This document shows, piece after piece, positions 1 to 27,218 of a DNA stretch of 32,000 nucleotides. The translations under genes were made by a program, and so were the position numbers. Each line of letters begins with the position of its first letter. The first letter of the stretch is position 1. Below the pieces are notes generated by a model. That model saw only the letters and a program-made list of their open reading frames with translations, did no database searches and was not told the DNA's origin. This stretch comes from Bacteroidetes bacterium ADurb.Bin013 (GTDB lineage: Bacteria > Bacteroidota > Bacteroidia > Bacteroidales > UBA932). The DNA is taken from assembly GCA_002071385.1 (NCBI GenBank), contig MWFB01000004.1, positions 1 to 32,000 of the forward strand, in the 5' to 3' direction.

Positions 1-1975
<1,975 letters not shown>

Positions 1976-2149
1976 TCCGAATCTCTTCTGTCTCCAGCCT
2001 CCCGGCTGAAAACCCTTGAGCTTCTTTTTGTAGTCCCTAATTTTTACGGTCTTAAAAACCTTCTTATTACAGACTCTTCTTTTTGATTTTTACCTCTATT
2101 ATCTCTCTTTAATACGTCAATGAACGACCGTTAATTTTCAAACGGGCTG

Positions 2150-2180
2150 CAAAGGTAACCGAATTTCCAGAATTCACAAA
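2150..2180 (-). promoter_or_regulatory. Bacteroidota-type promoter (TTTG-N19-TACCTTTG) facing the 23S gene
   Basis: The minus strand reads TTTG (reverse complement of 2177-2180), a 19-nt spacer, then TACCTTTG (reverse complement of 2150-2157). This is a full match to the -33 TTTG / -7 TAnnTTTG consensus. It lies about 170 nt upstream of the 23S 5' end. Confidence 0.6.
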
Positions 2181-2212
2181 TTTTTGTGGGATTATTTCAT
2201 TATTTTCGCAGA

Positions 2213-2887
2213 ATGAAACTGTTTTTCCTATGTTTTTTCATACAGTTTTTTTTTTCATCCCCAGGCTCCATTACGCAAAACCTACGGGACGGCTATGCTG
2301 AAATGGCAGAGGCCGATACCTCTCTGGGTATTCTGATCCTGGTAAACAAACACCATAAGCTTGCCGAAGGCTACCGGCCGCATGATCTTGTTCCTGTTGA
2401 TGACAGGTACAACAGGGGCATAATGAACCTGTTACGGAGTGAAGCCGCTGCCGCTTTTGCCCAAATGTGCAGCACAGCAGAGAAAGATAGTATCATCTTG
2501 TGGAACCATTCGGCTTACCGGTCAGACACGGTGCAGCGCCAGCTGTATGAAAATGCCGTTGAACGGAGGGGGGTTCAGAGGGCAGACCGGTTTTCCGCGC
2601 GGCCCGGCCATTCGGAGCACCAGACGGGACTTACCGTGGATTTGAACAGCACACACACCTCCTTTGGAAAAACACCAGAAGCGGCCTGGCTAAGGCAACA
2701 CGCCCATCTTTTCGGCTTCATAGAACGCTATCCCCGCCATCAGGAAGACATAACGGGTTATGAATATGAACCCTGGCACTACCGTTATGTCGGCATAGAA
2801 GCGGCTACCTATATATACAACAACAAACTAACTTTGGAAGAATACCATGGAACAAGCCAAAAACAAACCCGGCACCCTGCCAGATAA
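2213..2887 (+). CDS. M15B (VanY-like) D-alanyl-D-alanine carboxypeptidase, secreted
   Basis: Family motifs are present: SEHQTGLTVDL (SxHxxGxAxD-type zinc site) and EPWHYRYVG. The ATG at 2213 gives a hydrophobic signal-like N-terminus (MKLFFLCFFIQFFFSS), and I prefer it to the GTG at 2186. A near-consensus -7 box, TATTTTCG (2201-2208), ends 4 nt before the ATG. Confidence 0.85.
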   Translation: MKLFFLCFFIQFFFSSPGSITQNLRDGYAEMAEADTSLGILILVNKHHKLAEGYRPHDLVPVDDRYNRGIMNLLRSEAAAAFAQMCSTAEKDSIILWNHSAYRSDTVQRQLYENAVERRGVQRADRFSARPGHSEHQTGLTVDLNSTHTSFGKTPEAAWLRQHAHLFGFIERYPRHQEDITGYEYEPWHYRYVGIEAATYIYNNKLTLEEYHGTSQKQTRHPAR

Positions 2888-8364: not shown

Positions 8365-12789
<4,425 letters not shown>

Positions 12790-12790
12790 T

Positions 12791-14791
12791 ATGAAAACCA
12801 AACCGGCTACAGGGATGCTGACCTTGGCAGTATTCACATTCCTCACCTGCGTGACGGGCACCATCCTGCAAGCAAAAGTTAAAGTCCACTCCATTTCGTC
12901 TCCGGACGGGAAACTGGAACTTCAGGCGGTAACAGAGCCCAACATCTCTTTTTGCCTGCTGCGGGGAGACCAGGTCCTTGTCTCATCCCCCGCCCTTTCA
13001 CTCAGCCTGGAAGACGGAACAATCCTGGGGCCAAATGCCAGGCTTTCCAGGGCCAAAACAACCAATGTACGGGAAATCATCCCGTCCCCGCTGTACAGGA
13101 AATCAGAAATAATAGCAGTGTATAACCAGTTGGATATCAGTTTTCGTGAAGGATTCGGGATTCGTTTCCGCCTGTATGACCAGGGAGCTGCTTACCAATT
13201 CTATACCACTGGAAGGGATTCCCTGCACATAGTGAACGAATCGGCCGGATTTGTGTTCGAAAAAGATTACACCTGTTACGTTCCTTACAGCCGGGGAGTG
13301 GAAAGCCCTTTTAATAATTCATTCGAAAACATATACACAGTTACCCCTGTCAGCGGTTTTAATCCTGATAGCCTGGCCTTCCTGCCGCTTCTGGTCTGCC
13401 TGGACGACGGCATAAAGATGGTTCTTACAGAATCTGACCTGGAGTCTTATCCCGGCATGTTCCTGCGGGGAGAAAAGACCAGCCGTGGTTTTGAATACCG
13501 CGGCGTATTCGCACCCATCCCTTCCGCAACCAGGACCGAGCCGGTACGCGGACAGGTAATCCCCACGGATTATTCCCGGGTGATAGCACGCACCCCGGGA
13601 ACACGTTCTTTTCCATGGCGCATCATGGCTATAGCTGAAAAAGACACCGAATTGCCTGTCAACGACCTGGTCTATGCGCTGGGTGCTCCCAACAGGACAG
13701 GCGCCACAGATTGGATCAAACCAGGCAAGGTAGCCTGGGATTGGTGGAATAACTGGGGTGTCACCGGGGTGGATTTCCCGGTAGGGATCAACACGGAAAC
13801 CTACAAATATTACATTGACTTTGCTGCCGCCAACGGCATTGAATACGTGGTGCTGGACGAGGGATGGTCGCCTCCCGCAGGTCGGAACATCATGCAGGTG
13901 GTCCCGCAGATTGACCTGCAGGAACTGGTTACATACGCCGAAAAAAAGAACGTTGGCCTGATACTCTGGTGTGTAGCCTACGTTCTGGATGAAAAGCTGG
14001 AAGAAGCCTGCAGCTTCTATTCCCGAATGGGTTTCAAGGGATTCAAGGTCGACTTCATGGACAGGGATGACCAGCCTGTAGTGGAAATGTTGTACCGGAT
14101 TGCAGAAACAGCCGCCAGGCACAAGATGCTGATTGACTTCCATGGCATGTACAAGCCCACGGGATTCAACCGCACCTATCCGAACGTGGTCAATTTTGAA
14201 GGCATCTTCGGACTGGAACAATCCAAGTGGAGCCGTGAAGACATGGTCCCTCACGAAGTCACTTTCCCTTACATAAGAATGATGGCCGGACCCGTCGACT
14301 ACACCCAGGGGGCGATGCGCAATGCAACACGCCAGGATTTCCATCCGGTATACAACAACCCCATGGCTGCCGGTACACGGGCCAGGCAGGTAGCCACCTA
14401 CATTGTCTTTGACAATCCCCTGGTCATGTTATGTGACAACCCTTCCACATATATGAAAGAACAGGAAACGACCAGTTTCATCACCTGCATTCCCGTTGCA
14501 TGGGATGAAACACGCATCCTGCAGGGAGAACTGGGAAAATACATAGTATCTGCACGCAGAAAGGACTCTCAATGGTTTGTGGGAGGCCTCACAGACTGGA
14601 CGCCACGCACCATCACCCTGGATTTATCCTTTCTGGAACCGGGACGCACCTACCGGGCGAAAATCTTCAGGGACGGTGTGAACGCACACCGGCATGCAAC
14701 AGATTACAGGATAGAAGAGCGGGAAGTTACCTCCAAGGATGAGATCAAGGTTTACCTGAGCCCGGGAGGGGGTTTTGCGATAATTTTTTAA
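12791..14791 (+). CDS. GH97 glycoside hydrolase (alpha-glucosidase or alpha-galactosidase)
   Basis: The ATG lies 1 nt after the upstream stop codon and is followed by a signal peptide. GH97-like strings are present: SPDGKLEL, WDWWNNW, IEYVVLDEGW, FKGFKVDFMDRDDQ and LIDFHG. I cannot settle the specificity by eye. Confidence 0.85.
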   Translation: MKTKPATGMLTLAVFTFLTCVTGTILQAKVKVHSISSPDGKLELQAVTEPNISFCLLRGDQVLVSSPALSLSLEDGTILGPNARLSRAKTTNVREIIPSPLYRKSEIIAVYNQLDISFREGFGIRFRLYDQGAAYQFYTTGRDSLHIVNESAGFVFEKDYTCYVPYSRGVESPFNNSFENIYTVTPVSGFNPDSLAFLPLLVCLDDGIKMVLTESDLESYPGMFLRGEKTSRGFEYRGVFAPIPSATRTEPVRGQVIPTDYSRVIARTPGTRSFPWRIMAIAEKDTELPVNDLVYALGAPNRTGATDWIKPGKVAWDWWNNWGVTGVDFPVGINTETYKYYIDFAAANGIEYVVLDEGWSPPAGRNIMQVVPQIDLQELVTYAEKKNVGLILWCVAYVLDEKLEEACSFYSRMGFKGFKVDFMDRDDQPVVEMLYRIAETAARHKMLIDFHGMYKPTGFNRTYPNVVNFEGIFGLEQSKWSREDMVPHEVTFPYIRMMAGPVDYTQGAMRNATRQDFHPVYNNPMAAGTRARQVATYIVFDNPLVMLCDNPSTYMKEQETTSFITCIPVAWDETRILQGELGKYIVSARRKDSQWFVGGLTDWTPRTITLDLSFLEPGRTYRAKIFRDGVNAHRHATDYRIEEREVTSKDEIKVYLSPGGGFAIIF

Positions 14792-15344
14792 GCGTCTGGT
14801 AATCTTCCGGATTGAAGATTTTGATTTCCCTGTGCCCGTGTCCTTCGGCTATCAGGGAGGAAGGAGTATCCGAGTTGTTTATAAGCAACCACCTGTCACT
14901 CAGGGGTATATATATGTTGAACAGGTTCTGGATGCCGGACCAGTACCTGCGGCGTATAACGTTTTCGGGGATGGTGTGCCCCCCGGCCATCACCCGGCTT
15001 TGTACACGTTTCACCGCCAGGTCGGGGCTTTTGAGCCAGAAATAAACCAGCATCACGTCGTATCCCTTTTTCTTTGTTTTTTCTATCAGACTGGCAAAAG
15101 AACGTACAGCCAGGGTTGTCTCTATGGCAAAATCCTCCTTGGATTCCGACAATTCCCTGACCCTTTTGAGCATCACCCTTCCCGCATCTATGGCGGCATT
15201 TGAAAGGTCAAAAGGAGAAATACCCCTGGCAATTTCGTCTGAATTCACAAAAGCCCTGCACTGAAGCAATTCAGATAAAATGGTATAGGAAGCGGTTGTT
15301 TTACCTGATCCGTTGCAGCCGCTTATGACATACATGGTTGGCAT
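14745..15344 (-). CDS. Zeta-toxin-like / COG4185-type P-loop kinase
   Basis: A Walker A motif (GCNGSGKTT) sits at the extreme N-terminus, followed by an NSDEIA acceptor-site-like motif. The ~200-aa size is typical of zeta-toxin-domain ATPases. Confidence 0.7.
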   Translation of the reverse strand: MPTMYVISGCNGSGKTTASYTILSELLQCRAFVNSDEIARGISPFDLSNAAIDAGRVMLKRVRELSESKEDFAIETTLAVRSFASLIEKTKKKGYDVMLVYFWLKSPDLAVKRVQSRVMAGGHTIPENVIRRRYWSGIQNLFNIYIPLSDRWLLINNSDTPSSLIAEGHGHREIKIFNPEDYQTLKKLSQNPLPGSGKP

Positions 15345-15348
15345 AGTA

Positions 15349-15356
15349 CAAATTTA
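15349..15356 (-). promoter_or_regulatory. -7 box TAAATTTG ending 4 nt before the ATG of the zeta-like gene
   Basis: The reverse complement of 15349-15356 is TAAATTTG, followed by TACT and then the ATG at 15344. Confidence 0.5.
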
Positions 15357-15369
15357 CACTAAAATCCTG

Positions 15370-15377
15370 TACATTTG
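15370..15377 (+). promoter_or_regulatory. -7 box TACATTTG ending 4 nt before the ATG of the SpoU-family gene
   Basis: TACATTTG occupies 15370-15377, followed by CCAT and then the ATG at 15382. Confidence 0.5.
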
Positions 15378-15381
15378 CCAT

Positions 15382-15915
15382 ATGCCGAGAAAAATTCCAA
15401 ACAGGGAACTCCGTCGTTTATCCCCCGGTGAGTTCCGCAACAGCCCCAGGATGCCCGTAGTGCTGGTTTTGGACAACGTCCGGAGCCAGCATAATATTGG
15501 CTCGGCTTTCCGCACTGCCGACGCATTCGCCCTGGAACATGTCTTTTTGTGCGGGATAACCGCCTGTCCGCCCTCCGCAGAGATCCATAAATCGGCCCTT
15601 GGGGCCGAAAACACCATGGAGTGGACATACGTTGAAAACACCCTGGATGCCGTCCGCCGGCTGCAGGAGCAGGGATATGCCGTACTGGCCGTGGAACAGG
15701 CCGAAGGGGCGGGAAACCTGGCGGCTTTCAGTCCTGGAAAACATCAGAAAACGGCGCTGGTATTCGGGAATGAGGTGCGCGGAGTCAAACAGGAGGTTGT
15801 GGATGCCTGTGACGGATGTCTGGAAATTCCCCAGCATGGCACCAAGCACTCGCTGAATGTATCCGTGGCCATTGGAGTGGTGCTCTGGCACTATTACCTG
15901 ACCATGAGAGTCTGA
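15382..15915 (+). CDS. SpoU/TrmH-family RNA 2'-O-methyltransferase
   Basis: SpoU motifs are present: NIGSAFRTADAF, LVFGNEVRGV and IPQHGTKHSLNVSVAIGVVLW. The start is the ATG at 15382. Confidence 0.85.
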   Translation: MPRKIPNRELRRLSPGEFRNSPRMPVVLVLDNVRSQHNIGSAFRTADAFALEHVFLCGITACPPSAEIHKSALGAENTMEWTYVENTLDAVRRLQEQGYAVLAVEQAEGAGNLAAFSPGKHQKTALVFGNEVRGVKQEVVDACDGCLEIPQHGTKHSLNVSVAIGVVLWHYYLTMRV

Positions 15916-21791: not shown

Positions 21792-23003
21792 TTATTGAGT
21801 CTTGATCCCGTACCAGGGATGTTCCCTGACAGAAACCACTTGGGTTCCGTCATCAATATGATTCAGGATCCTGGCTGCCCTCAGCAACCTGTCTGAACCT
21901 TCATAATAAATGTCACTGGCAGGATCCAGCGAGTTGATCCTGACCCTCCCGGCTGAATGAATAAAACGGCCGTCTCCAATATATATTCCTACGTGGGTAA
22001 TGCTTTCCTTCCTGTCCTCCGTGGCTTTCCTCCCGAAAAATATCAGGTCACCCATGGTCAGTCGTTGCCAGCCTTCGCTTATGTCAACCTGTTCTCCCAT
22101 GCGTGCCTGCTGCGATGCATCCCGCAACAGGACAATCCCGTTCAGGTAAAATGCGGTTTTTACAAGACCGCTGCAATCCATTGCCTTGATGGAAGTTCCG
22201 GCCCAAAGATAAGGGAAGCCCACAAACTGCATGGCCGTTGCAATGATATCTTCCGGCAGGGGATTTCCCGATCTGGCCCATGCCTCAAAGGGTTCTGCAT
22301 CATAGCGTGGCAGGTATGCCTGTTTTCCATCCGGTAGCCTTACCTTATAAAACAAAGGTGTTTGCCCTTCCAGCTCCACAATATTGCCCCACACCCCGTC
22401 AGACACCACAGGTGCTCCCGGAAGAGGCTTCTCCCTGAATAAGGTATAATGTTTATTTACAATGACTTTGGGTGCTTTCATCCATTGACCGTATGTTTGT
22501 TCATCCATCTCCTGCAGGCTGGACGAAGAAACCCAGGCTATATAACCTTCCGGTGTCCTGACCCTGGTCCAGCTTCCTTTCTTGTCCAGAATGCGCAAGG
22601 GCATTCCCATGAGTGTCTGCGTGGCTGACTCGGATGAATAGCGTGGTTCATAGCGCAGGTTGGCCACTGACAGGCTGGTAACACCATATATACGGCCTTC
22701 CAGGGCAGGATCGGGCAACAAGACAATGCTGTCTGTAAGCTCTATTCCTTGTGATGCAGCGGCAGCAACCAGGGCGGGTACCACGCCGGGTTCGGTGGTA
22801 GAGCCTTTCATAACATAAGTTTTTGAACCCTGTAGTTTTACGAACACGATCTCATAAACATTATCGCGCCTGTCCGGAGTGAAAGCAGTTTTCACATTGT
22901 CGGAAATGTTGGAAAGTTTTTCCAAGGTCCTTGTTTTCGTGCATCCGGCGAGTACGGCCAGAGCAGCTGAAATTGCGACAAGATAATAGAATTGCTTTTT
23001 CAT
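21792..23003 (-). CDS. NlpC/P60 (C40) gamma-D-glutamyl-L-diamino-acid endopeptidase-like lipoprotein with SH3b-like domains
   Basis: It has a lipobox (LAVLAGC). The C-terminal catalytic region shows DCSGLV (Cys) and HVGIYIGDGRFIHS (His). The middle region resembles the paired SH3b architecture of YkfC. Confidence 0.85.
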   Translation of the reverse strand: MKKQFYYLVAISAALAVLAGCTKTRTLEKLSNISDNVKTAFTPDRRDNVYEIVFVKLQGSKTYVMKGSTTEPGVVPALVAAAASQGIELTDSIVLLPDPALEGRIYGVTSLSVANLRYEPRYSSESATQTLMGMPLRILDKKGSWTRVRTPEGYIAWVSSSSLQEMDEQTYGQWMKAPKVIVNKHYTLFREKPLPGAPVVSDGVWGNIVELEGQTPLFYKVRLPDGKQAYLPRYDAEPFEAWARSGNPLPEDIIATAMQFVGFPYLWAGTSIKAMDCSGLVKTAFYLNGIVLLRDASQQARMGEQVDISEGWQRLTMGDLIFFGRKATEDRKESITHVGIYIGDGRFIHSAGRVRINSLDPASDIYYEGSDRLLRAARILNHIDDGTQVVSVREHPWYGIKTQ

Positions 23004-23009
23004 ATCTTA

Positions 23010-23017
23010 CAAATTTA
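23010..23017 (-). promoter_or_regulatory. -7 box TAAATTTG ending 6 nt before the ATG of the NlpC/P60 gene
   Basis: The reverse complement of 23010-23017 is TAAATTTG, followed by TAAGAT and then the ATG at 23003. A partial -33 element (CTTG) lies 19 nt upstream. Confidence 0.5.
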
Positions 23018-23026
23018 CGGCAAATC

Positions 23027-23058
23027 TTTGATTTGACAAGGCATACTTGTTACCTTTG
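23027..23058 (+). promoter_or_regulatory. Promoter TTTG-N20-TACCTTTG abutting the radical SAM gene start
   Basis: TTTG occupies 23027-23030, followed by a 20-nt spacer and TACCTTTG at 23051-23058. ATG codons follow at 23060 and 23063. Confidence 0.6.
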
Positions 23059-23059
23059 C

Positions 23060-24052
23060 ATGATGCAACGTTACAAATCCTTTACGGGTTATTTCATAAG
23101 CCGGTACGGAACCCGCCTTCAGAAAGTAGTCGTTGATGCCGGTTTTTCCTGTCCCAACCGTGACGGTACCACAGGTACAGGAGGTTGTACCTATTGCGAC
23201 AACCGGGCTTTTCATCCCGGCTACAGCACACCGGATAAAAGCCTGACCCTGCAGATAGATGAGGGCATTGAATTCCATCGTGTGCGCTACTGTAAAGCGG
23301 GAGGTTATCTTGCTTATTTCCAGCCTTATTCCAACACACATGCCCCATTGGAGGACCTGCGCAGGATATACAAGCCTGCCCTGGAAGATCCCCGCATCAG
23401 CGGAATTGTGGTGGCTACCCGTCCCGATTGTATTGATGCACGAAAGCTGAAGTATTTCAGGGACCTGTCACTTGAAAAAATCGTTATTCTGGAATACGGC
23501 GTAGAATCCTGCTATAACAGGACACTGCAGCGCATCAACCGTTGCCACACCTGGGAACAATCTGCCGCTGCAATCCGTGACACCGCTGCCCTGGGGATTC
23601 ACACCTGTGTTCATATGATATTCGGGTTACCGGGAGAAAGCAGGGAAGAGATGCTTTCGGAAGCCGGAATCCTTAGCCGGTTGCCTCTGACAAGCCTCAA
23701 ACTCCACCAGTTGCAAATTGTGAAAGGAACTCCCATGGAAAAGGAATTTGCGGAAAAACCCGGAGACTTTGTCACTTTTTCACTCCATCAGTACCTGGAC
23801 TTTATCATAGATTTTCTGGAAAGGCTGCGCCCCGATATATTCATTGAACGTGTGGCCGGAGAAGTGCCGCCCCGTTTTGTGCATTCCAATCCCTGGGGAC
23901 TGATCCGCAATGTGGAAATCCTGCGTCTCCTTGAAAAAAGGCTGGAAGAACGCAATACCTTCCAGGGCGCCCTGTACGTCAATCCCACAGAAAGTGCAAC
24001 TGATGGCAATCCTCAACCGCCTGCAGGTTTGAACGAAAACGCTCCGGCATGA
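23060..24052 (+). CDS. TIGR01212/YhcC-family radical SAM protein
   Basis: The cluster region GFSCPNRDGTTGTGGCTYCDN and overall collinearity match E. coli YhcC. The true start may be the second ATG at 23063, given the promoter spacing. Confidence 0.85.
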   Translation: MMQRYKSFTGYFISRYGTRLQKVVVDAGFSCPNRDGTTGTGGCTYCDNRAFHPGYSTPDKSLTLQIDEGIEFHRVRYCKAGGYLAYFQPYSNTHAPLEDLRRIYKPALEDPRISGIVVATRPDCIDARKLKYFRDLSLEKIVILEYGVESCYNRTLQRINRCHTWEQSAAAIRDTAALGIHTCVHMIFGLPGESREEMLSEAGILSRLPLTSLKLHQLQIVKGTPMEKEFAEKPGDFVTFSLHQYLDFIIDFLERLRPDIFIERVAGEVPPRFVHSNPWGLIRNVEILRLLEKRLEERNTFQGALYVNPTESATDGNPQPPAGLNENAPA

Positions 24053-24512: not shown

Positions 24513-25686
24513 ACATCTTATCCACTATGACGGCAATGGCCCCGTCACCGGTTACATTGCACGCCGTTCCAAAACTATCCATCGCAATATACAGTGATAT
24601 CATCAATCCTGTTGCCTCGGGGTCAAAACCCAGAACAGACTGAAGTACCCCTATAGCAGCCATGATGGCCCCCCCGGGAACACCGGGTGCTGCTATCATC
24701 GTAATAGCCAGCAGGAAAATAAATCCCACAAAGACAGCCGGGTCAACCGGTATGTTCATCATAATCATGACCGCCAGGGCACAGGCGGTTATCTTTAGCA
24801 TGCTCCCGGACAGGTGCACCGTTGCACACAACGGGATGACAGATCCTGCTATGCGCGGATCTATGCCTAAACTGATGGTCTGGCGCAATGTCACCGGAAT
24901 GGTTGCCGCAGAGGACTGCGTCCCCAGTGCCGTCACGTAGGCGGTAAGCATGGTGCGCAGCATGGTAAAAGGATTTCTTCTTGCTACCAGGCCGGCAACC
25001 GAAAATTGAAACACCAGGAGGATAACGGTCAGGATGAAAATCAATATTACAATCTTAACGAACACTCCCATTACCTGGACGACATGGCCTTCGGCTGCCA
25101 TTTTCATAAAAATGCCGAAAATAAAGAGAGGCAATAAGGGAATAATCACCCCTGATATGGTCTTGTTCACAATTTCACGGAATCCCAGGAGTGCCTGTTT
25201 CAGGACATCCCCGTTGTTGATGATGGTCAGTCCCAGACCCAGTACAAAGGCAAGAACCAGTGCCGGCATCACTCCAAACAGGGGGGAAAAATCCAGGGTG
25301 AAATACGGTACAAGCTGCTCTCCGGCAGACAATCCGTTTTCTGCCGGAGATGCCATGGTCATGGCAGTTTCTGCTCCATCCAGCAAGATTGGATATACCA
25401 ATTTACAGGCTAATAAGGTAAAAAAACCGGTCAATACAGTGGAACCGTACGCCAGTGCCATGGTTGTGCCCAGCATTTTACCGGCACCCTTTCCCAATTC
25501 TGCGATTCCCGGGGCAATGAGGCCCACTATAATGAGCGGGACAATAAAATCAAGGAAGTTGCTAAAAAGACCGTTGAATGTCAAAAAGATCCGTAACGCC
25601 CAGGTTGGGAAGAACAATCCCGACAGAATTCCGAGTATGATGGCTATGGCAACCCGGGCAAGTAAGCCGATCTTCCATTTCTTCAT
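24505..25686 (-). CDS. DAACS-family cation symporter, SstT-like neutral amino-acid type
   Basis: This is a 393-aa polytopic protein. Its C-terminal motif DSFGTACNVTGDG corresponds to the DxxRT..NVxGD site of glutamate transporters. The Arg is replaced here, as it is in Ser/Thr carriers. Confidence 0.7.
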   Translation of the reverse strand: MKKWKIGLLARVAIAIILGILSGLFFPTWALRIFLTFNGLFSNFLDFIVPLIIVGLIAPGIAELGKGAGKMLGTTMALAYGSTVLTGFFTLLACKLVYPILLDGAETAMTMASPAENGLSAGEQLVPYFTLDFSPLFGVMPALVLAFVLGLGLTIINNGDVLKQALLGFREIVNKTISGVIIPLLPLFIFGIFMKMAAEGHVVQVMGVFVKIVILIFILTVILLVFQFSVAGLVARRNPFTMLRTMLTAYVTALGTQSSAATIPVTLRQTISLGIDPRIAGSVIPLCATVHLSGSMLKITACALAVMIMMNIPVDPAVFVGFIFLLAITMIAAPGVPGGAIMAAIGVLQSVLGFDPEATGLMISLYIAMDSFGTACNVTGDGAIAVIVDKMYA

Positions 25687-25691
25687 GGTTA

Positions 25692-25699
25692 CAAAGATA
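25692..25699 (-). promoter_or_regulatory. -7 box TATCTTTG ending 5 nt before the symporter ATG
   Basis: The reverse complement of 25692-25699 is TATCTTTG, followed by TAACC and then the ATG at 25686. Confidence 0.5.
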
Positions 25700-25721
25700 A
25701 TACATAATCAGTCGTTTTCTT

Positions 25722-25729
25722 TATCTTTG
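25722..25729 (+). promoter_or_regulatory. -7 box TATCTTTG for guaB
   Basis: TATCTTTG occupies 25722-25729, 19 nt upstream of the guaB ATG at 25749. It is an inverted copy of the box at 25692-25699. Confidence 0.5.
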
Positions 25730-25748
25730 CAGGATAAAATCTTAGGCC

Positions 25749-27218
25749 ATGAAATCAATAAGTGATCGGATACTCTATGAAGGGCTCACCTTTGACGATG
25801 TGCTGCTCCTGCCTGCCGCCTCTGCTGTTCTTCCCCGGGAAGTGGACCTGACTACACGTTTTTCAAGGAATATCATACTCAGTACCCCTATAGTGTCATC
25901 TGCGATGGATACTGTGACAGATGCCACCCTTGCCATAGCCATCGCGCGTGAAGGCGGCCTGGGGGTGATCCATAAGAACATGACCATTGAACAACAAATG
26001 GAACATGTGAGGAAAGTAAAGCGATCCGAGAGCGGGATGATCTATGATCCCATTGTCATAGGACCGGAAGCTACCGTAGGTGATGCACTCCGGCTGATGG
26101 CCGAGAACAGCATTGGAGGAATACCGGTGGTTGACAGTAAGCATAGGCTTATTGGCATAGTGACCAATCGTGACCTCCGTTTTGTGAACAATGACTCCAC
26201 TCCCATCACAGAAGTCATGACAAAGGAAAACCTGATTACCATCCGTAACGGGGCCGATCTGAGCACTGCCACAGAATTGCTCAAGAAGTACAAGATTGAG
26301 AAACTACCGGTAGTAGACGAGAATTATAAACTTATAGGACTGCTGACATTCAGGGATATAAGAAAAATCAAGGATAATCCCAGGGCAACCAAAGACAGCA
26401 AAGGACGGCTTCGTACGGCAGCAGCTGTTGGAGTACGGGCCAATACCCTGGAACACATAGAAAAACTCCTGTCAGTAGATATTGATGCGGTAGTCATTGA
26501 CACAGCGCACGGTCATTCAATCAGCGTTCTGGAAACGTTGCGTAAAGCAAAAAAAGCATTTCCTCACCTTGATATTGTAGCCGGTAATGTGGCCACTGCT
26601 ACCGGCGCACTCGCCCTTGCCGAATGCGGGGCAGATGCTGTCAAGGTTGGCATTGGCCCCGGTTCTATCTGTACCACACGCGTGGTTGCAGGTGTAGGAG
26701 TTCCGCAATTATCGGCAATCATGGGAGCTTATAGCGTGCTTAAGGACAAGGGTGTTCCTGTAATTGCCGACGGCGGCGTGCGGTATTCGGGGGATATGGT
26801 CAAGGCTTTGGCGGCAGGGGCCGATACCGTTATGGCCGGATCGCTTTTCGCCGGAGTGGAAGAGTCTCCGGGTGAGACCATCATCCTGAACGGAAGAAAA
26901 TTCAAGAGCTACCGTGGCATGGGATCCCTGGAAGCCATGCAACAAGGGTCCAAAGACCGTTATTTCCAGGATGCCGAGGAAGATGTGAAAAAACTGGTCC
27001 CCGAAGGCATTGTCGCCCAGGTTCCCTACAAGGGAACATTGAGCGAAGTCTTTTACCAGCTGGCGGGAGGACTTCGTGCCGGAATGGGATACTGCGGCAC
27101 ACCGGACCTGGCATCACTGAAAAAAGCAGAATTCGTACGCATCACATCTGCCGGTGTCATAGAAAACCATCCGCACGACGTGACTATTACCCGTGAAGCT
27201 CCCAATTATTCCAGATAA
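25749..27218 (+). CDS. guaB: IMP dehydrogenase
   Basis: Matching strings are [11 protein letters not shown] and SSAMDTVT, a CBS-pair insert, and the catalytic loop [11 protein letters not shown]. Length is 489 aa. Confidence 0.97.

What the first reader, a model, noticed from the sequence alone, without database searches (positions are those of the whole stretch)
15345..15381. Back-to-back promoters with -7 boxes 4 nt from both start codons (predicted leaderless pair)
The 37-bp gap between the zeta-like gene and the SpoU gene holds two outward-facing TAnnTTTG boxes. One is TAAATTTG on the minus strand (15356-15349) and the other is TACATTTG on the plus strand (15370-15377). Each ends exactly 4 nt before its ATG.

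In Bacteroides promoters the transcription start lies a few nt downstream of this box. Both mRNAs should therefore be leaderless or carry leaders of 3 nt or less. Each promoter's -33 region falls on the other gene's -7 box and first codons, which implies mutual occlusion by RNA polymerase.

The same 4-6 nt spacing recurs at 23003, 23063 and 25686, and as a near-consensus box at 2213. A motif with six fixed positions landing five times within 6 nt of a start codon is unlikely to be chance.
Basis: partly seen in the sequence, partly recalled or inferred. Interest (0 to 1): 0.6.

Follow-up and report, generated by a model that had tools for sequence, protein, structure and literature searches.

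The report
Compact two-way promoter, leaderless mRNAs
The 37-base gap between two back-to-back genes is most likely a shared two-way promoter whose transcripts start right at each start codon, and this design is about five times more common in this uncultured Bacteroidales genus than in other members of its order.

Summary
TAAATTTG (15356-15349, minus strand) and TACATTTG (15370-15377, plus strand) each end exactly 4 nt before an ATG, at 15344 and 15382.

In the 2.26-Mb genome, exact TAnnTTTG boxes pile up 4-7 nt before about 160 gene-start ATGs, with the peak at 4 nt. Roughly 2-3 are expected by chance, and control motifs give 0-7 per offset. A separate hump at 15-30 nt holds the ordinary leadered promoters.

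Published start-site maps place this box at -12 to -5. A 4-nt gap therefore puts +1 on the A of ATG, which gives a leaderless mRNA.

The two boxes, their spacing and both ATGs are conserved in 15 related genomes, while the 4-6 nt between each box and its ATG varies freely.

Back-to-back box pairs are also helically phased, with inter-box spacers of about 12, 22 and 33 nt. This locus has 13.

The signature is about five times denser in this genus than in eight other Bacteroidales families. No RNA data could be obtained, so the transcription start sites remain inferred.

Earlier scan notes recorded boxes 3-4 nt before ATGs in two other genomes, without a genome-wide count.

The parts
14745..15344 (-). 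Zeta-toxin-like P-loop kinase/ATPase gene (199 aa). Its start ATG is at 15344-15342.
   Evidence: Translation. Pfam Zeta_toxin 1.2e-10 and AAA_33. The box's TAA lies in frame 12 nt upstream, so the ORF cannot extend further (read). The first ATG is kept in all 15 relatives, whereas the second ATG (residue 4) is Leu in two of them.
15345..15348 (-). 4-nt gap between the minus-strand box and its ATG. The predicted +1 is the A at 15344.
   Evidence: The length is fixed at 4 nt in all 16 genomes while the sequence varies. Published maps show 4-5 nt between box and start site.
15349..15356 (-). -7 box TAAATTTG of the zeta-like gene's promoter.
   Evidence: It keeps the consensus in all 15 relatives (two read TACATTTG).
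15357..15369 (.). 13-nt inter-box spacer with an AT-rich core, TAAAAT, at 15360-15365. The core lies at about -18 of both promoters and is probably a shared upstream element.
   Evidence: The AT-rich -21..-15 block appears in the logos of both the leaderless and the leadered promoter classes. The TAAAA core is conserved in relatives. Spacers of 11-13 nt are the modal class among back-to-back box pairs.
15370..15377 (+). -7 box TACATTTG of the SpoU gene's promoter.
   Evidence: All 15 relatives have TACMTTTG.
15378..15381 (+). 4-nt gap between the plus-strand box and its ATG. The predicted +1 is the A at 15382.
   Evidence: The gap is 4-6 nt in relatives and its sequence is unconstrained. These 1-2 nt indels show the stretch is non-coding.
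15382..15915 (+). SpoU/TrmH-family RNA methyltransferase gene (177 aa).
   Evidence: Pfam SpoU_methylase 1.6e-36. The N-terminus M-x-R-K-I/L sits at the same place in homologues across Bacteroidales. Third-position wobble begins directly after the ATG. The next in-frame Met (residue 24) is Leu or Ile in 7 relatives.
23003..23063 (.). Second back-to-back pair. The box at 23017-23010 (minus) lies 6 nt before the NlpC/P60 ATG at 23003. The box at 23051-23058 (plus) lies 4 nt before the radical-SAM ATG at 23063. The inter-box spacer is 33 nt.
25686..25749 (.). Third back-to-back pair. The box at 25699-25692 (minus) lies 5 nt before the dicarboxylate-symporter ATG at 25686 (leaderless type). The box at 25722-25729 (plus) lies 19 nt before the IMP-dehydrogenase ATG at 25749 (leadered type). 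The inter-box spacer is 22 nt.
2201..2215 (+). Near-consensus box TATTTTCG lying 4 nt before the ATG at 2213 of a VanY-type carboxypeptidase gene.
   Evidence: One-mismatch boxes of this kind (TAnnTTnG) show a small genome-wide peak at 4 nt: 13 against about 5.

Best explanation
The 37-bp gap is a compact two-way promoter of the Bacteroidetes housekeeping-sigma type. It has two outward-facing -7 boxes (TAnnTTTG) 13 nt apart and an AT-rich core (TAAAAT) that lies at about -18 of both promoters.

RNA polymerase bound in one orientation is predicted to start at the A of the SpoU ATG (15382). Bound in the other orientation, it should start at the A of the zeta-like gene's ATG (15344). Both mRNAs would then begin with AUG, with no leader or at most 1 nt. 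They would have to be translated by the leaderless route, in which the ribosome recognises a 5'-terminal AUG.

What is shown:
- the boxes, their placement and their conservation;
- the genome-wide two-class distribution of box-to-ATG distances;
- the shared promoter logo of the two classes;
- the helical phasing of box pairs.

What is inferred:
- the exact transcription start sites, taken from published box-to-start spacing in Flavobacterium species;
- the mode of translation;
- that only one polymerase can occupy the module at a time, since the two starts are 38 bp apart.

This locus is one of about 160 such genes and 14 such double-leaderless pairs in the genome. The design is a trait of the genus.
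For: 1. Placement. Exact boxes lie 4 nt before both ATGs.

2. Genome-wide test. Among 1874 crudely called genes, the first ATG is preceded by an exact box at 4, 5, 6 and 7 nt in 57, 33, 19 and 14 genes. There is a trough at 8-14 nt (1-6 each) and a second hump at 15-30 nt. In all, 159-162 genes fall at 3-7 nt (8.5%). My calculation from base composition expects about 2-3. Control motifs give 0-7 per offset.

3. Start codon. The peak is seen only for ATG: 71 at 4 nt, against 1 for GTG and 1 for TTG. This is expected if a 5'-terminal AUG is required.

4. Promoter logo. Start-abutting and leadered boxes share the same flanks: AT-rich at -21..-15 and -31..-26, almost no G at -10/-9, and a pyrimidine at -4. 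These match the features reported for mapped Flavobacterium johnsoniae promoters.

5. Published spacing. The box spans -12 to -5, with 4-5 nt to the start site (PMC6847099; PMC9723704).

6. Gene context. 96 of 558 divergent-head genes carry a start-abutting box, against 26 of 851 genes that lie 30 nt or less behind a same-strand gene. That is promoter-like, not ribosome-site-like.

7. Conservation. In 15 related genomes (74-92% SpoU identity) both boxes, both ATGs and the AT-rich core are kept. The nucleotides between box and ATG vary in sequence, and on the SpoU side in length (4-6 nt). Codon-type wobble begins right after each ATG.

8. Recurrent design. There are 14 double-leaderless divergent pairs, 7 of them with gaps of 35-38 nt. 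The 135 back-to-back box pairs have spacers peaking at 11-13, 20-22 and 32-35 nt. The period is about 10 bp, and 0 of 20000 smoothed resamples reach the observed power. The phasing is kept in five genus-mates: 30-33 pairs at 11-13 nt, 2-4 at 16-18 nt and 17-23 at 20-22 nt.
Against: - The start sites rest on spacing measured in other Bacteroidota.
- My gene calls are crude: longest ORF with the first ATG.
- There is no -33 TTTG element at this locus or in the genome, so one textbook feature of the promoter family is missing.
- Leaderless transcripts are few in the cultured relatives that have been mapped: 3.7% of 5' UTRs under 10 nt in B. thetaiotaomicron, 5.5% in F. psychrophilum, and 35-36 transcripts in Segatella copri. 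The efficiency of leaderless translation in this phylum has not been established.
- The relatives used for conservation are kin and are not independent.
Confidence: 0.8

Rival explanations
1. The boxes are real promoters, but translation starts at a downstream codon. The mRNAs would then have ordinary leaders and the '4 nt' would be an annotation artefact.
For: The zeta-like gene has a second in-frame ATG at residue 4 (15335), and SpoU has a Met at residue 24. My genome-wide gene calls take the first ATG.
Against: The first ATGs are kept in all 15 relatives. The alternative Met codons are not: residue 4 of the zeta-like protein is Leu in two relatives, and residue 24 of SpoU is Leu or Ile in seven. 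Third-position wobble starts directly after the first ATG on both sides. SpoU homologues across the order begin M-x-R-K-I/L at the same position. A genome-wide peak at exactly 4-5 nt, and only for ATG, would be unexplained if those ATGs were not used.
Confidence: 0.05
2. The octamer next to the ATG acts in the mRNA as a non-Shine-Dalgarno translation signal. The transcripts would start at promoters further upstream, inside the neighbouring gene.
For: Bacteroidetes lack Shine-Dalgarno sites and use A/T-rich signals near the start codon. No RNA data are available here.
Against: The start-abutting boxes are about six times more frequent at divergent gene heads (17%) than at operon-internal genes (3%). 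They carry the full promoter logo for 20 nt upstream of the box, identical to the leadered class. The motif is exactly the mapped -7 element at exactly the mapped distance. Offsets of 8-14 nt are depleted, which a ribosome-site model does not predict. At this locus an upstream promoter would have to sit inside the other gene's coding sequence.
Confidence: 0.07
3. The inverted repeat formed by the two boxes (CAAATTTAC, 11 nt, GTACATTTG) is mainly the binding site of a dimeric regulator. Alternatively, the sigma-70-like match TTGGCA-16-TAAAAT (15338-15365) is the working promoter for SpoU and gives a leader of about 10 nt.
For: The two arms match at 8 of 9 positions as an inverted repeat (read). 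The generic sigma-70 scan scores the second site 10 of 12.
Against: The same back-to-back layout recurs at more than 100 places, and only the six fixed box positions are shared. No single regulator site would show that pattern. Bacteroidetes housekeeping sigma does not use -35/-10 promoters (literature). The TTGGCA hexamer overlaps the zeta-like gene's start codon and varies among relatives. The scan found 3 such sites against 1.2 +/- 1.1 in shuffles.
Confidence: 0.05
4. The two boxes at this locus are there by chance and have no function.
For: The total box count in the window is not above the shuffled expectation (19 against 16.6 +/- 4.4).
Against: Both boxes are conserved in 15 species while their flanks drift. 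The genome-wide excess at 4-7 nt is about 60-fold over the composition expectation.
Confidence: 0.01

Closest known systems
Bacteroidetes housekeeping-sigma (sigma-ABfr) promoters: -7 TAnnTTTG and -33 TTTG (B. fragilis, F. johnsoniae, F. psychrophilum, B. thetaiotaomicron)
   Same: The -7 octamer is the same, with non-G at the two free positions. There are AT-rich blocks near -18 and -28, and the implied distance from box to start site is 4-5 nt.
   Different: No -33 TTTG is detectable in this genome. That matches F. johnsoniae, where the -33 motif is described as much less evident. About a third of recognisable promoters here abut the start codon. In the mapped species the typical leader is about 23-33 nt.
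Leaderless mRNAs of Actinobacteria and Deinococcus-Thermus (GeneMarkS-2 'group C') and the small leaderless minority of cultured Bacteroidota
   Same: The promoter box sits at a fixed short distance from an AUG start at the first gene of a transcription unit. Promoter-to-start distances fall into two classes. My estimate of 33% of box-bearing unit heads lies within the 25-50% reported for group C.
   Different: The box is the Bacteroidetes -7 element ending 4 nt from the ATG, not a Pribnow box 6-8 nt away. About 90% of Bacteroidetes/Chlorobi genomes were assigned to group B, meaning leadered with a non-Shine-Dalgarno site. Mapped relatives show few leaderless transcripts: 3.7% and 5.5% of 5' UTRs, or 35-36 transcripts. 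A Pribnow-based survey found leaderless genes in only 1 of 37 Bacteroidetes/Chlorobi genomes and flagged this as a likely underestimate.
Bidirectional promoters of E. coli and other prokaryotes (Warman et al.; PMC12825309)
   Same: A pseudo-symmetrical sequence drives divergent transcription. Binding of polymerase in one orientation excludes the other. There are preferred discrete distances between the two start sites.
   Different: In E. coli the two -10 elements overlap or interlock and the commonest start-to-start distance is 18 bp. Here the boxes are separate, the predicted start-to-start distances are about 37, 47 and 58 bp (spacer + 25), and both products are predicted to be leaderless mRNAs. 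In E. coli basal activity was too low for competition, so interference here should not be assumed.

Membership tests
Bacteroidetes sigma-ABfr-type promoter | -7 element TAnnTTTG, refined to TAHHTTTG | tested here: met
   TAAATTTG and TACATTTG. Neither has G at the free positions. Both are conserved in 15 relatives.
Bacteroidetes sigma-ABfr-type promoter | -33 element TTTG about 19-21 nt upstream of the -7 box | tested here: not met
   There is no TTTG at the right distance on either strand. Genome-wide, TTTG occurs at spacers of 19-20 nt in 2.6% or fewer of promoters. The motif is also weak in F. johnsoniae and present at only 15% of S. copri start sites, so it is not a strict requirement.
Bacteroidetes sigma-ABfr-type promoter | AT-rich upstream blocks near -18 and -28 | tested here: met
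   TAAAAT at 15360-15365 lies at -22..-17 of the plus promoter and -21..-16 of the minus promoter.
Bacteroidetes sigma-ABfr-type promoter | Transcription starts 4-5 nt after the box | not testable with these tools
   The run finder was unavailable, so no reads could be laid on the locus.
Leaderless mRNA | Transcript 5' end at the start codon, or within about 3 nt of it | not testable with these tools
   Inferred from the box position and the published spacing. No RNA data.
Leaderless mRNA | AUG start codon and first gene of a transcription unit | tested here: met
   Both genes start with ATG and are divergent unit heads. The genome-wide peak is ATG-only and is enriched at unit heads.
Leaderless mRNA | Promoter box at one fixed distance from many start codons, distinct from the leadered class | tested here: met
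   There is a peak at 4-7 nt, a trough at 8-14 nt and a second hump at 15-30 nt.
E. coli-type bidirectional promoter (interlocked -10 elements) | Overlapping or interlocked core elements on opposite strands, with start sites about 10, 18 or 23 bp apart | tested here: not met
   The boxes are 13 nt apart and the predicted start sites are 38 bp apart. It works like a bidirectional promoter but does not have that architecture.

The most novel reading that the evidence does not exclude
One uncultured Bacteroidales genus from anaerobic digesters, and a few other small-genome Bacteroidota lineages, may have moved about a third of their recognisable promoters onto the start codon. The promoters would also be packed into helically phased two-way modules, with box spacers of about 12, 22 and 33 nt that share AT-rich upstream elements. 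If so, leaderless initiation would be a major and evolvable route of gene expression in a phylum thought to be almost entirely leadered. Promoter pairs would follow a spacing rule not described for this sigma factor.
Probability: 0.55. Interest if true: 0.65.

Novelty: new variant of a known kind. Interest (0 to 1): 0.5.

Why it matters
Bacteroidota lack Shine-Dalgarno pairing, and how their ribosomes choose start codons is an open question. Mapped species have few leaderless transcripts, and gene finders treat the phylum as leadered.

A lineage in which at least 8.5% of genes, and about a third of box-bearing unit heads, are predicted to be leaderless would have three uses:
- It would give a natural system for testing leaderless initiation on Bacteroidota ribosomes.
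- It would improve start-codon calling in metagenome-assembled genomes, because a box ending 4-5 nt upstream marks the true ATG.
- It would supply very short (37 bp) two-way promoters for Bacteroides engineering.

The roughly 10-bp phasing of back-to-back boxes suggests a shared upstream element. It also gives a simple, testable spacing rule.

Tried and rejected
- A -33 TTTG element. I looked in logos and by direct counting and found none.
- Loss of ribosomal protein S1 as a cause of leaderless usage. rpsA is present at 548 bits.
- A repeat or mobile-element artefact. The 162 candidate proteins are diverse, with only a few paralogous pairs and three tandem ATG-ATG double counts.
- The box as a ribosome-site-like signal. 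Gene context and the shared promoter logo argue against it.
- A sigma-70-like promoter at 15338-15365. I treated it as a chance match.
- Earlier scan notes. They hold only first-reader notes on this window, plus two notes on boxes 3-4 nt before ATGs in other genomes. None has a genome-wide count.
- Correlation with genome size. I did not compute a formal statistic because the genomes are kin. It is reported only as an impression.
- Limits of the estimates. I did not run a proper gene finder, as none was on hand. I could not apply the gene-level method to whole genomes of other families. Only pattern counts and 378 kb of other-Bacteroidales loci were available.

Full report
**Observation**

I read window 15200-15520 directly. 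On the minus strand, TAAATTTG occupies 15356-15349. Four bases follow, then the ATG at 15344-15342. On the plus strand, TACATTTG occupies 15370-15377. Four bases follow, then the ATG at 15382.

The minus-strand ORF (14745-15344, 199 aa) matches Pfam Zeta_toxin and AAA_33. The plus-strand ORF (15382-15915, 177 aa) matches SpoU_methylase at 1.6e-36.

- 6 nt before the ATG at 23003
- 4 nt before the ATG at 23063
- 5 nt before the ATG at 25686
- a one-mismatch box (TATTTTCG) 4 nt before the ATG at 2213

These genes are ordinary housekeeping genes: an NlpC/P60 peptidase, a radical-SAM protein, a dicarboxylate symporter and a VanY-type peptidase.

**Are the start codons right?**

For the zeta-like gene, the box's own TAA lies in frame 12 nt upstream of the ATG. 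The ORF therefore cannot start earlier.

I aligned the region with 15 related genomes, which are uncultured Bacteroidales, mostly from anaerobic digesters, with 74-92% SpoU identity.
- Both first ATGs are invariant.
- The alternative Met codons are not. Residue 4 of the zeta-like protein is Leu in two relatives. Residue 24 of SpoU is Leu or Ile in seven.
- The every-third-base wobble typical of coding sequence starts immediately after each ATG.
- Indels of 1-2 nt occur between the SpoU box and its ATG, and in the inter-box spacer. The gap is therefore non-coding. The in-frame upstream ATG at 15334 and TTG at 15313 are not a conserved extension.
- More distant SpoU homologues begin M-x-R-K-I/L at the same position.

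The window's assembly has 2.26 Mb, 122 contigs and 48.8% G+C. It holds 1548 exact TAnnTTTG sites. I counted ATGs that open an ORF of at least 100 codons at each offset after the G of the box.

| Offset (nt) | 3 | 4 | 5 | 6 | 7 | background |
|---|---|---|---|---|---|---|
| ATGs | 15 | 71 | 45 | 25 | 23 | about 7 |

A second, broad hump lies at 17-26 nt.

With a crude gene call of 1874 genes, the first ATG of a gene is preceded by a box as follows.

| Offset (nt) | 4 | 5 | 6 | 7 | 8-14 | 15-30 |
|---|---|---|---|---|---|---|
| Genes | 57 | 33 | 19 | 14 | 1-6 each | hump |

In total 159-162 genes (8.5%) fall in the 3-7 nt class. From base composition I expect about 2-3.

Further checks:
- Eleven control motifs (reversed, complemented, one base changed, or one base longer or shorter) give 0-7 per offset.
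- The peak exists only for ATG: 71, against 1 for GTG and 1 for TTG.
- One-mismatch boxes add smaller peaks at 4-5 nt, so 8.5% is a lower bound.
- The candidate set is not a repeat family.

**Are these boxes promoters or translation signals?**

Three results point to promoters.

First, start-abutting boxes and boxes 15-30 nt upstream share the same flanking logo. Both have A/T-rich blocks at -21..-15 and -31..-26, almost no G at the two free box positions, and a pyrimidine just after the box. These features were reported for mapped F. johnsoniae promoters (PMC6847099).

Second, 96 of 558 divergent-head genes carry a start-abutting box. Only 26 of 851 genes lying 30 nt or less behind a same-strand neighbour do.

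Third, start-site maps place the box at -12 to -5. PMC6847099 reports 4-5 nt between the box and the start site, and PMC9723704 places the box at -12 to -5. A 4-nt gap therefore puts +1 on the A of the ATG. The genome-wide mode at 4 nt, then 5 nt, matches this. The trough at 8-14 nt fits two discrete designs: no leader, or a leader long enough for normal initiation.

**Local anatomy**

The predicted start sites, 15344 and 15382, are 38 bp apart.

However, this genome has no -33 TTTG signal. What the two promoters do share is the AT-rich core TAAAAT (15360-15365). It sits at about -18 of both and is conserved in the relatives. The nucleotides between each box and its ATG drift.

**A recurrent, phased design**

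The genome has 14 divergent pairs in which both genes are of the start-abutting type. Seven of these have gaps of 35-38 nt.

Counting all back-to-back box pairs regardless of genes gives 135 pairs with spacers of 0-60 nt. This is far more than convergent or same-strand pairs. The spacers peak at 11-13, 20-22 and 32-35 nt and dip at 16-19 and 24-29 nt. The period is about 10 bp, and none of 20000 smoothed resamples reaches the observed power.

The three pairs in the window have spacers of 13, 22 and 33 nt, one on each peak.

Five genus-mates show the same pattern.

| Spacer (nt) | 11-13 | 16-18 | 20-22 |
|---|---|---|---|
| Pairs per genome | 30-33 | 2-4 | 17-23 |

These are largely orthologous sites, so they show maintenance rather than independent replication.

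My reading is an inference. The A/T-rich upstream blocks at -18 and -28 are nearly symmetrical and one helical turn apart. Divergent promoters can therefore share them when the start sites are about 37, 47 or 58 bp apart.

**How unusual is this?**

I counted the pattern 'box, 4 nt, ATG' against the same pattern read backwards.

| Genomes | Pattern : control | Excess per Mb |
|---|---|---|
| 13 genomes of this genus | about 4:1 | about 26-40 |
| 8 other families of the order | 1.1-1.9:1 | about 3-14 |

- Within the family the excess ranges from about 0 to 40 per Mb.
- In a 200-genome sample of the phylum only a few genomes come close, notably two of 2.0-2.2 Mb.
- The same histogram on 378 kb from 65 other Bacteroidales loci gives 4, 1, 2 and 2 at 4-7 nt, against 14, 8 and 10 at 20-22 nt.
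- SpoU itself has its box about 15-22 nt upstream in many other Bacteroidales, so the leader seems to have been lost in this lineage.

The literature agrees that leaderless transcripts are rare in this phylum:
- 3.7% of 5' UTRs are under 10 nt in B. thetaiotaomicron (PMC7366714).
- 5.5% are leaderless in F. psychrophilum.
- 87% of leaders exceed 10 nt in F. johnsoniae.
- S. copri has 35-36 leaderless transcripts (bioRxiv 10.1101/2024.04.05.588293).
- About 90% of Bacteroidetes/Chlorobi genomes were put in the leadered 'group B' by GeneMarkS-2 (PMC6028130).
- Leaderless genes were found in 1 of 37 genomes by a Pribnow-based survey, which itself warned of underestimation in this phylum (PMC3160421).

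In this genome, among unit heads with an exact box within 60 nt, 129 of 393 (33%) are of the start-abutting type.

**Mutual occlusion**

Two polymerases cannot sit on start sites 38 bp apart. That follows from general knowledge of polymerase footprints and was not tested here. Work on E. coli bidirectional promoters found that basal activity was too low for competition unless one side was strongly activated (PMC12825309). Interference at this locus is therefore possible but should not be assumed.

**Limits**

- No RNA data could be obtained, so all start sites are inferred.
- The gene calls are crude.
- The related genomes are not independent.
- The taxonomic handles are anonymous.

**Verdict**

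The single locus is an ordinary member of a genome-wide class. The class itself is a new variant of known kinds in two respects: its frequency in this genus, and the phased two-way modules.

Noticed in passing
window 1-2212: A 23S rRNA gene lies on the minus strand at 1-1971 and is cut by the window edge (Rfam LSU_rRNA_bacteria, 1657 bits). A consensus box, TACCTTTG, at 2157-2150 (minus) lies about 178 nt upstream of its 5' end. No 16S match lies between the box and the 23S gene within 1-2400.
   Followed up: partly
genome contigs C5 and C12 (outside the window): Several proteins on C5 and C12 are 82-92% identical. The assembly may hold a second strain or sister species (stated contamination 3.1%) or a large duplication. 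A few of the candidate leaderless genes are therefore counted twice as near-copies.
   Followed up: no
window 14745-14791: The 3' end of the zeta-like gene (minus strand) overlaps the 3' end of the convergent GH97 glycoside hydrolase ORF (12662-14791, plus strand) by 47 nt. No small partner ORF for an antitoxin is evident on either side.
   Followed up: no
window 15338-15365: A sigma-70-like match, TTGGCA-16-TAAAAT (10 of 12), overlaps the zeta-like gene's start codon and the AT-rich core. It is probably a chance match in an organism whose housekeeping sigma does not read such promoters.
   Followed up: partly
L026, L027 and L029, about 3 nt upstream of the stated match start: In three more distant Bacteroidales genomes (63% SpoU identity) the SpoU homologue also has a consensus box (TAATTTTG) followed by 4 nt and an ATG. 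Start-abutting promoters on this gene may therefore have arisen more than once.
   Followed up: no
genomes G197 and G163 (other families or classes of the phylum): Two unrelated small genomes (2.0-2.2 Mb) show a box-4nt-ATG excess as strong as this genus (128 against 33, and 73 against 25). Larger genomes mostly show none. This hints at a link between genome reduction and leader loss.
   Followed up: no
whole genome: The leadered promoter class peaks at box-to-ATG distances of 20-23 nt, which implies leaders of about 16-19 nt. That is somewhat shorter than the 23-nt mode reported for B. thetaiotaomicron.
   Followed up: no
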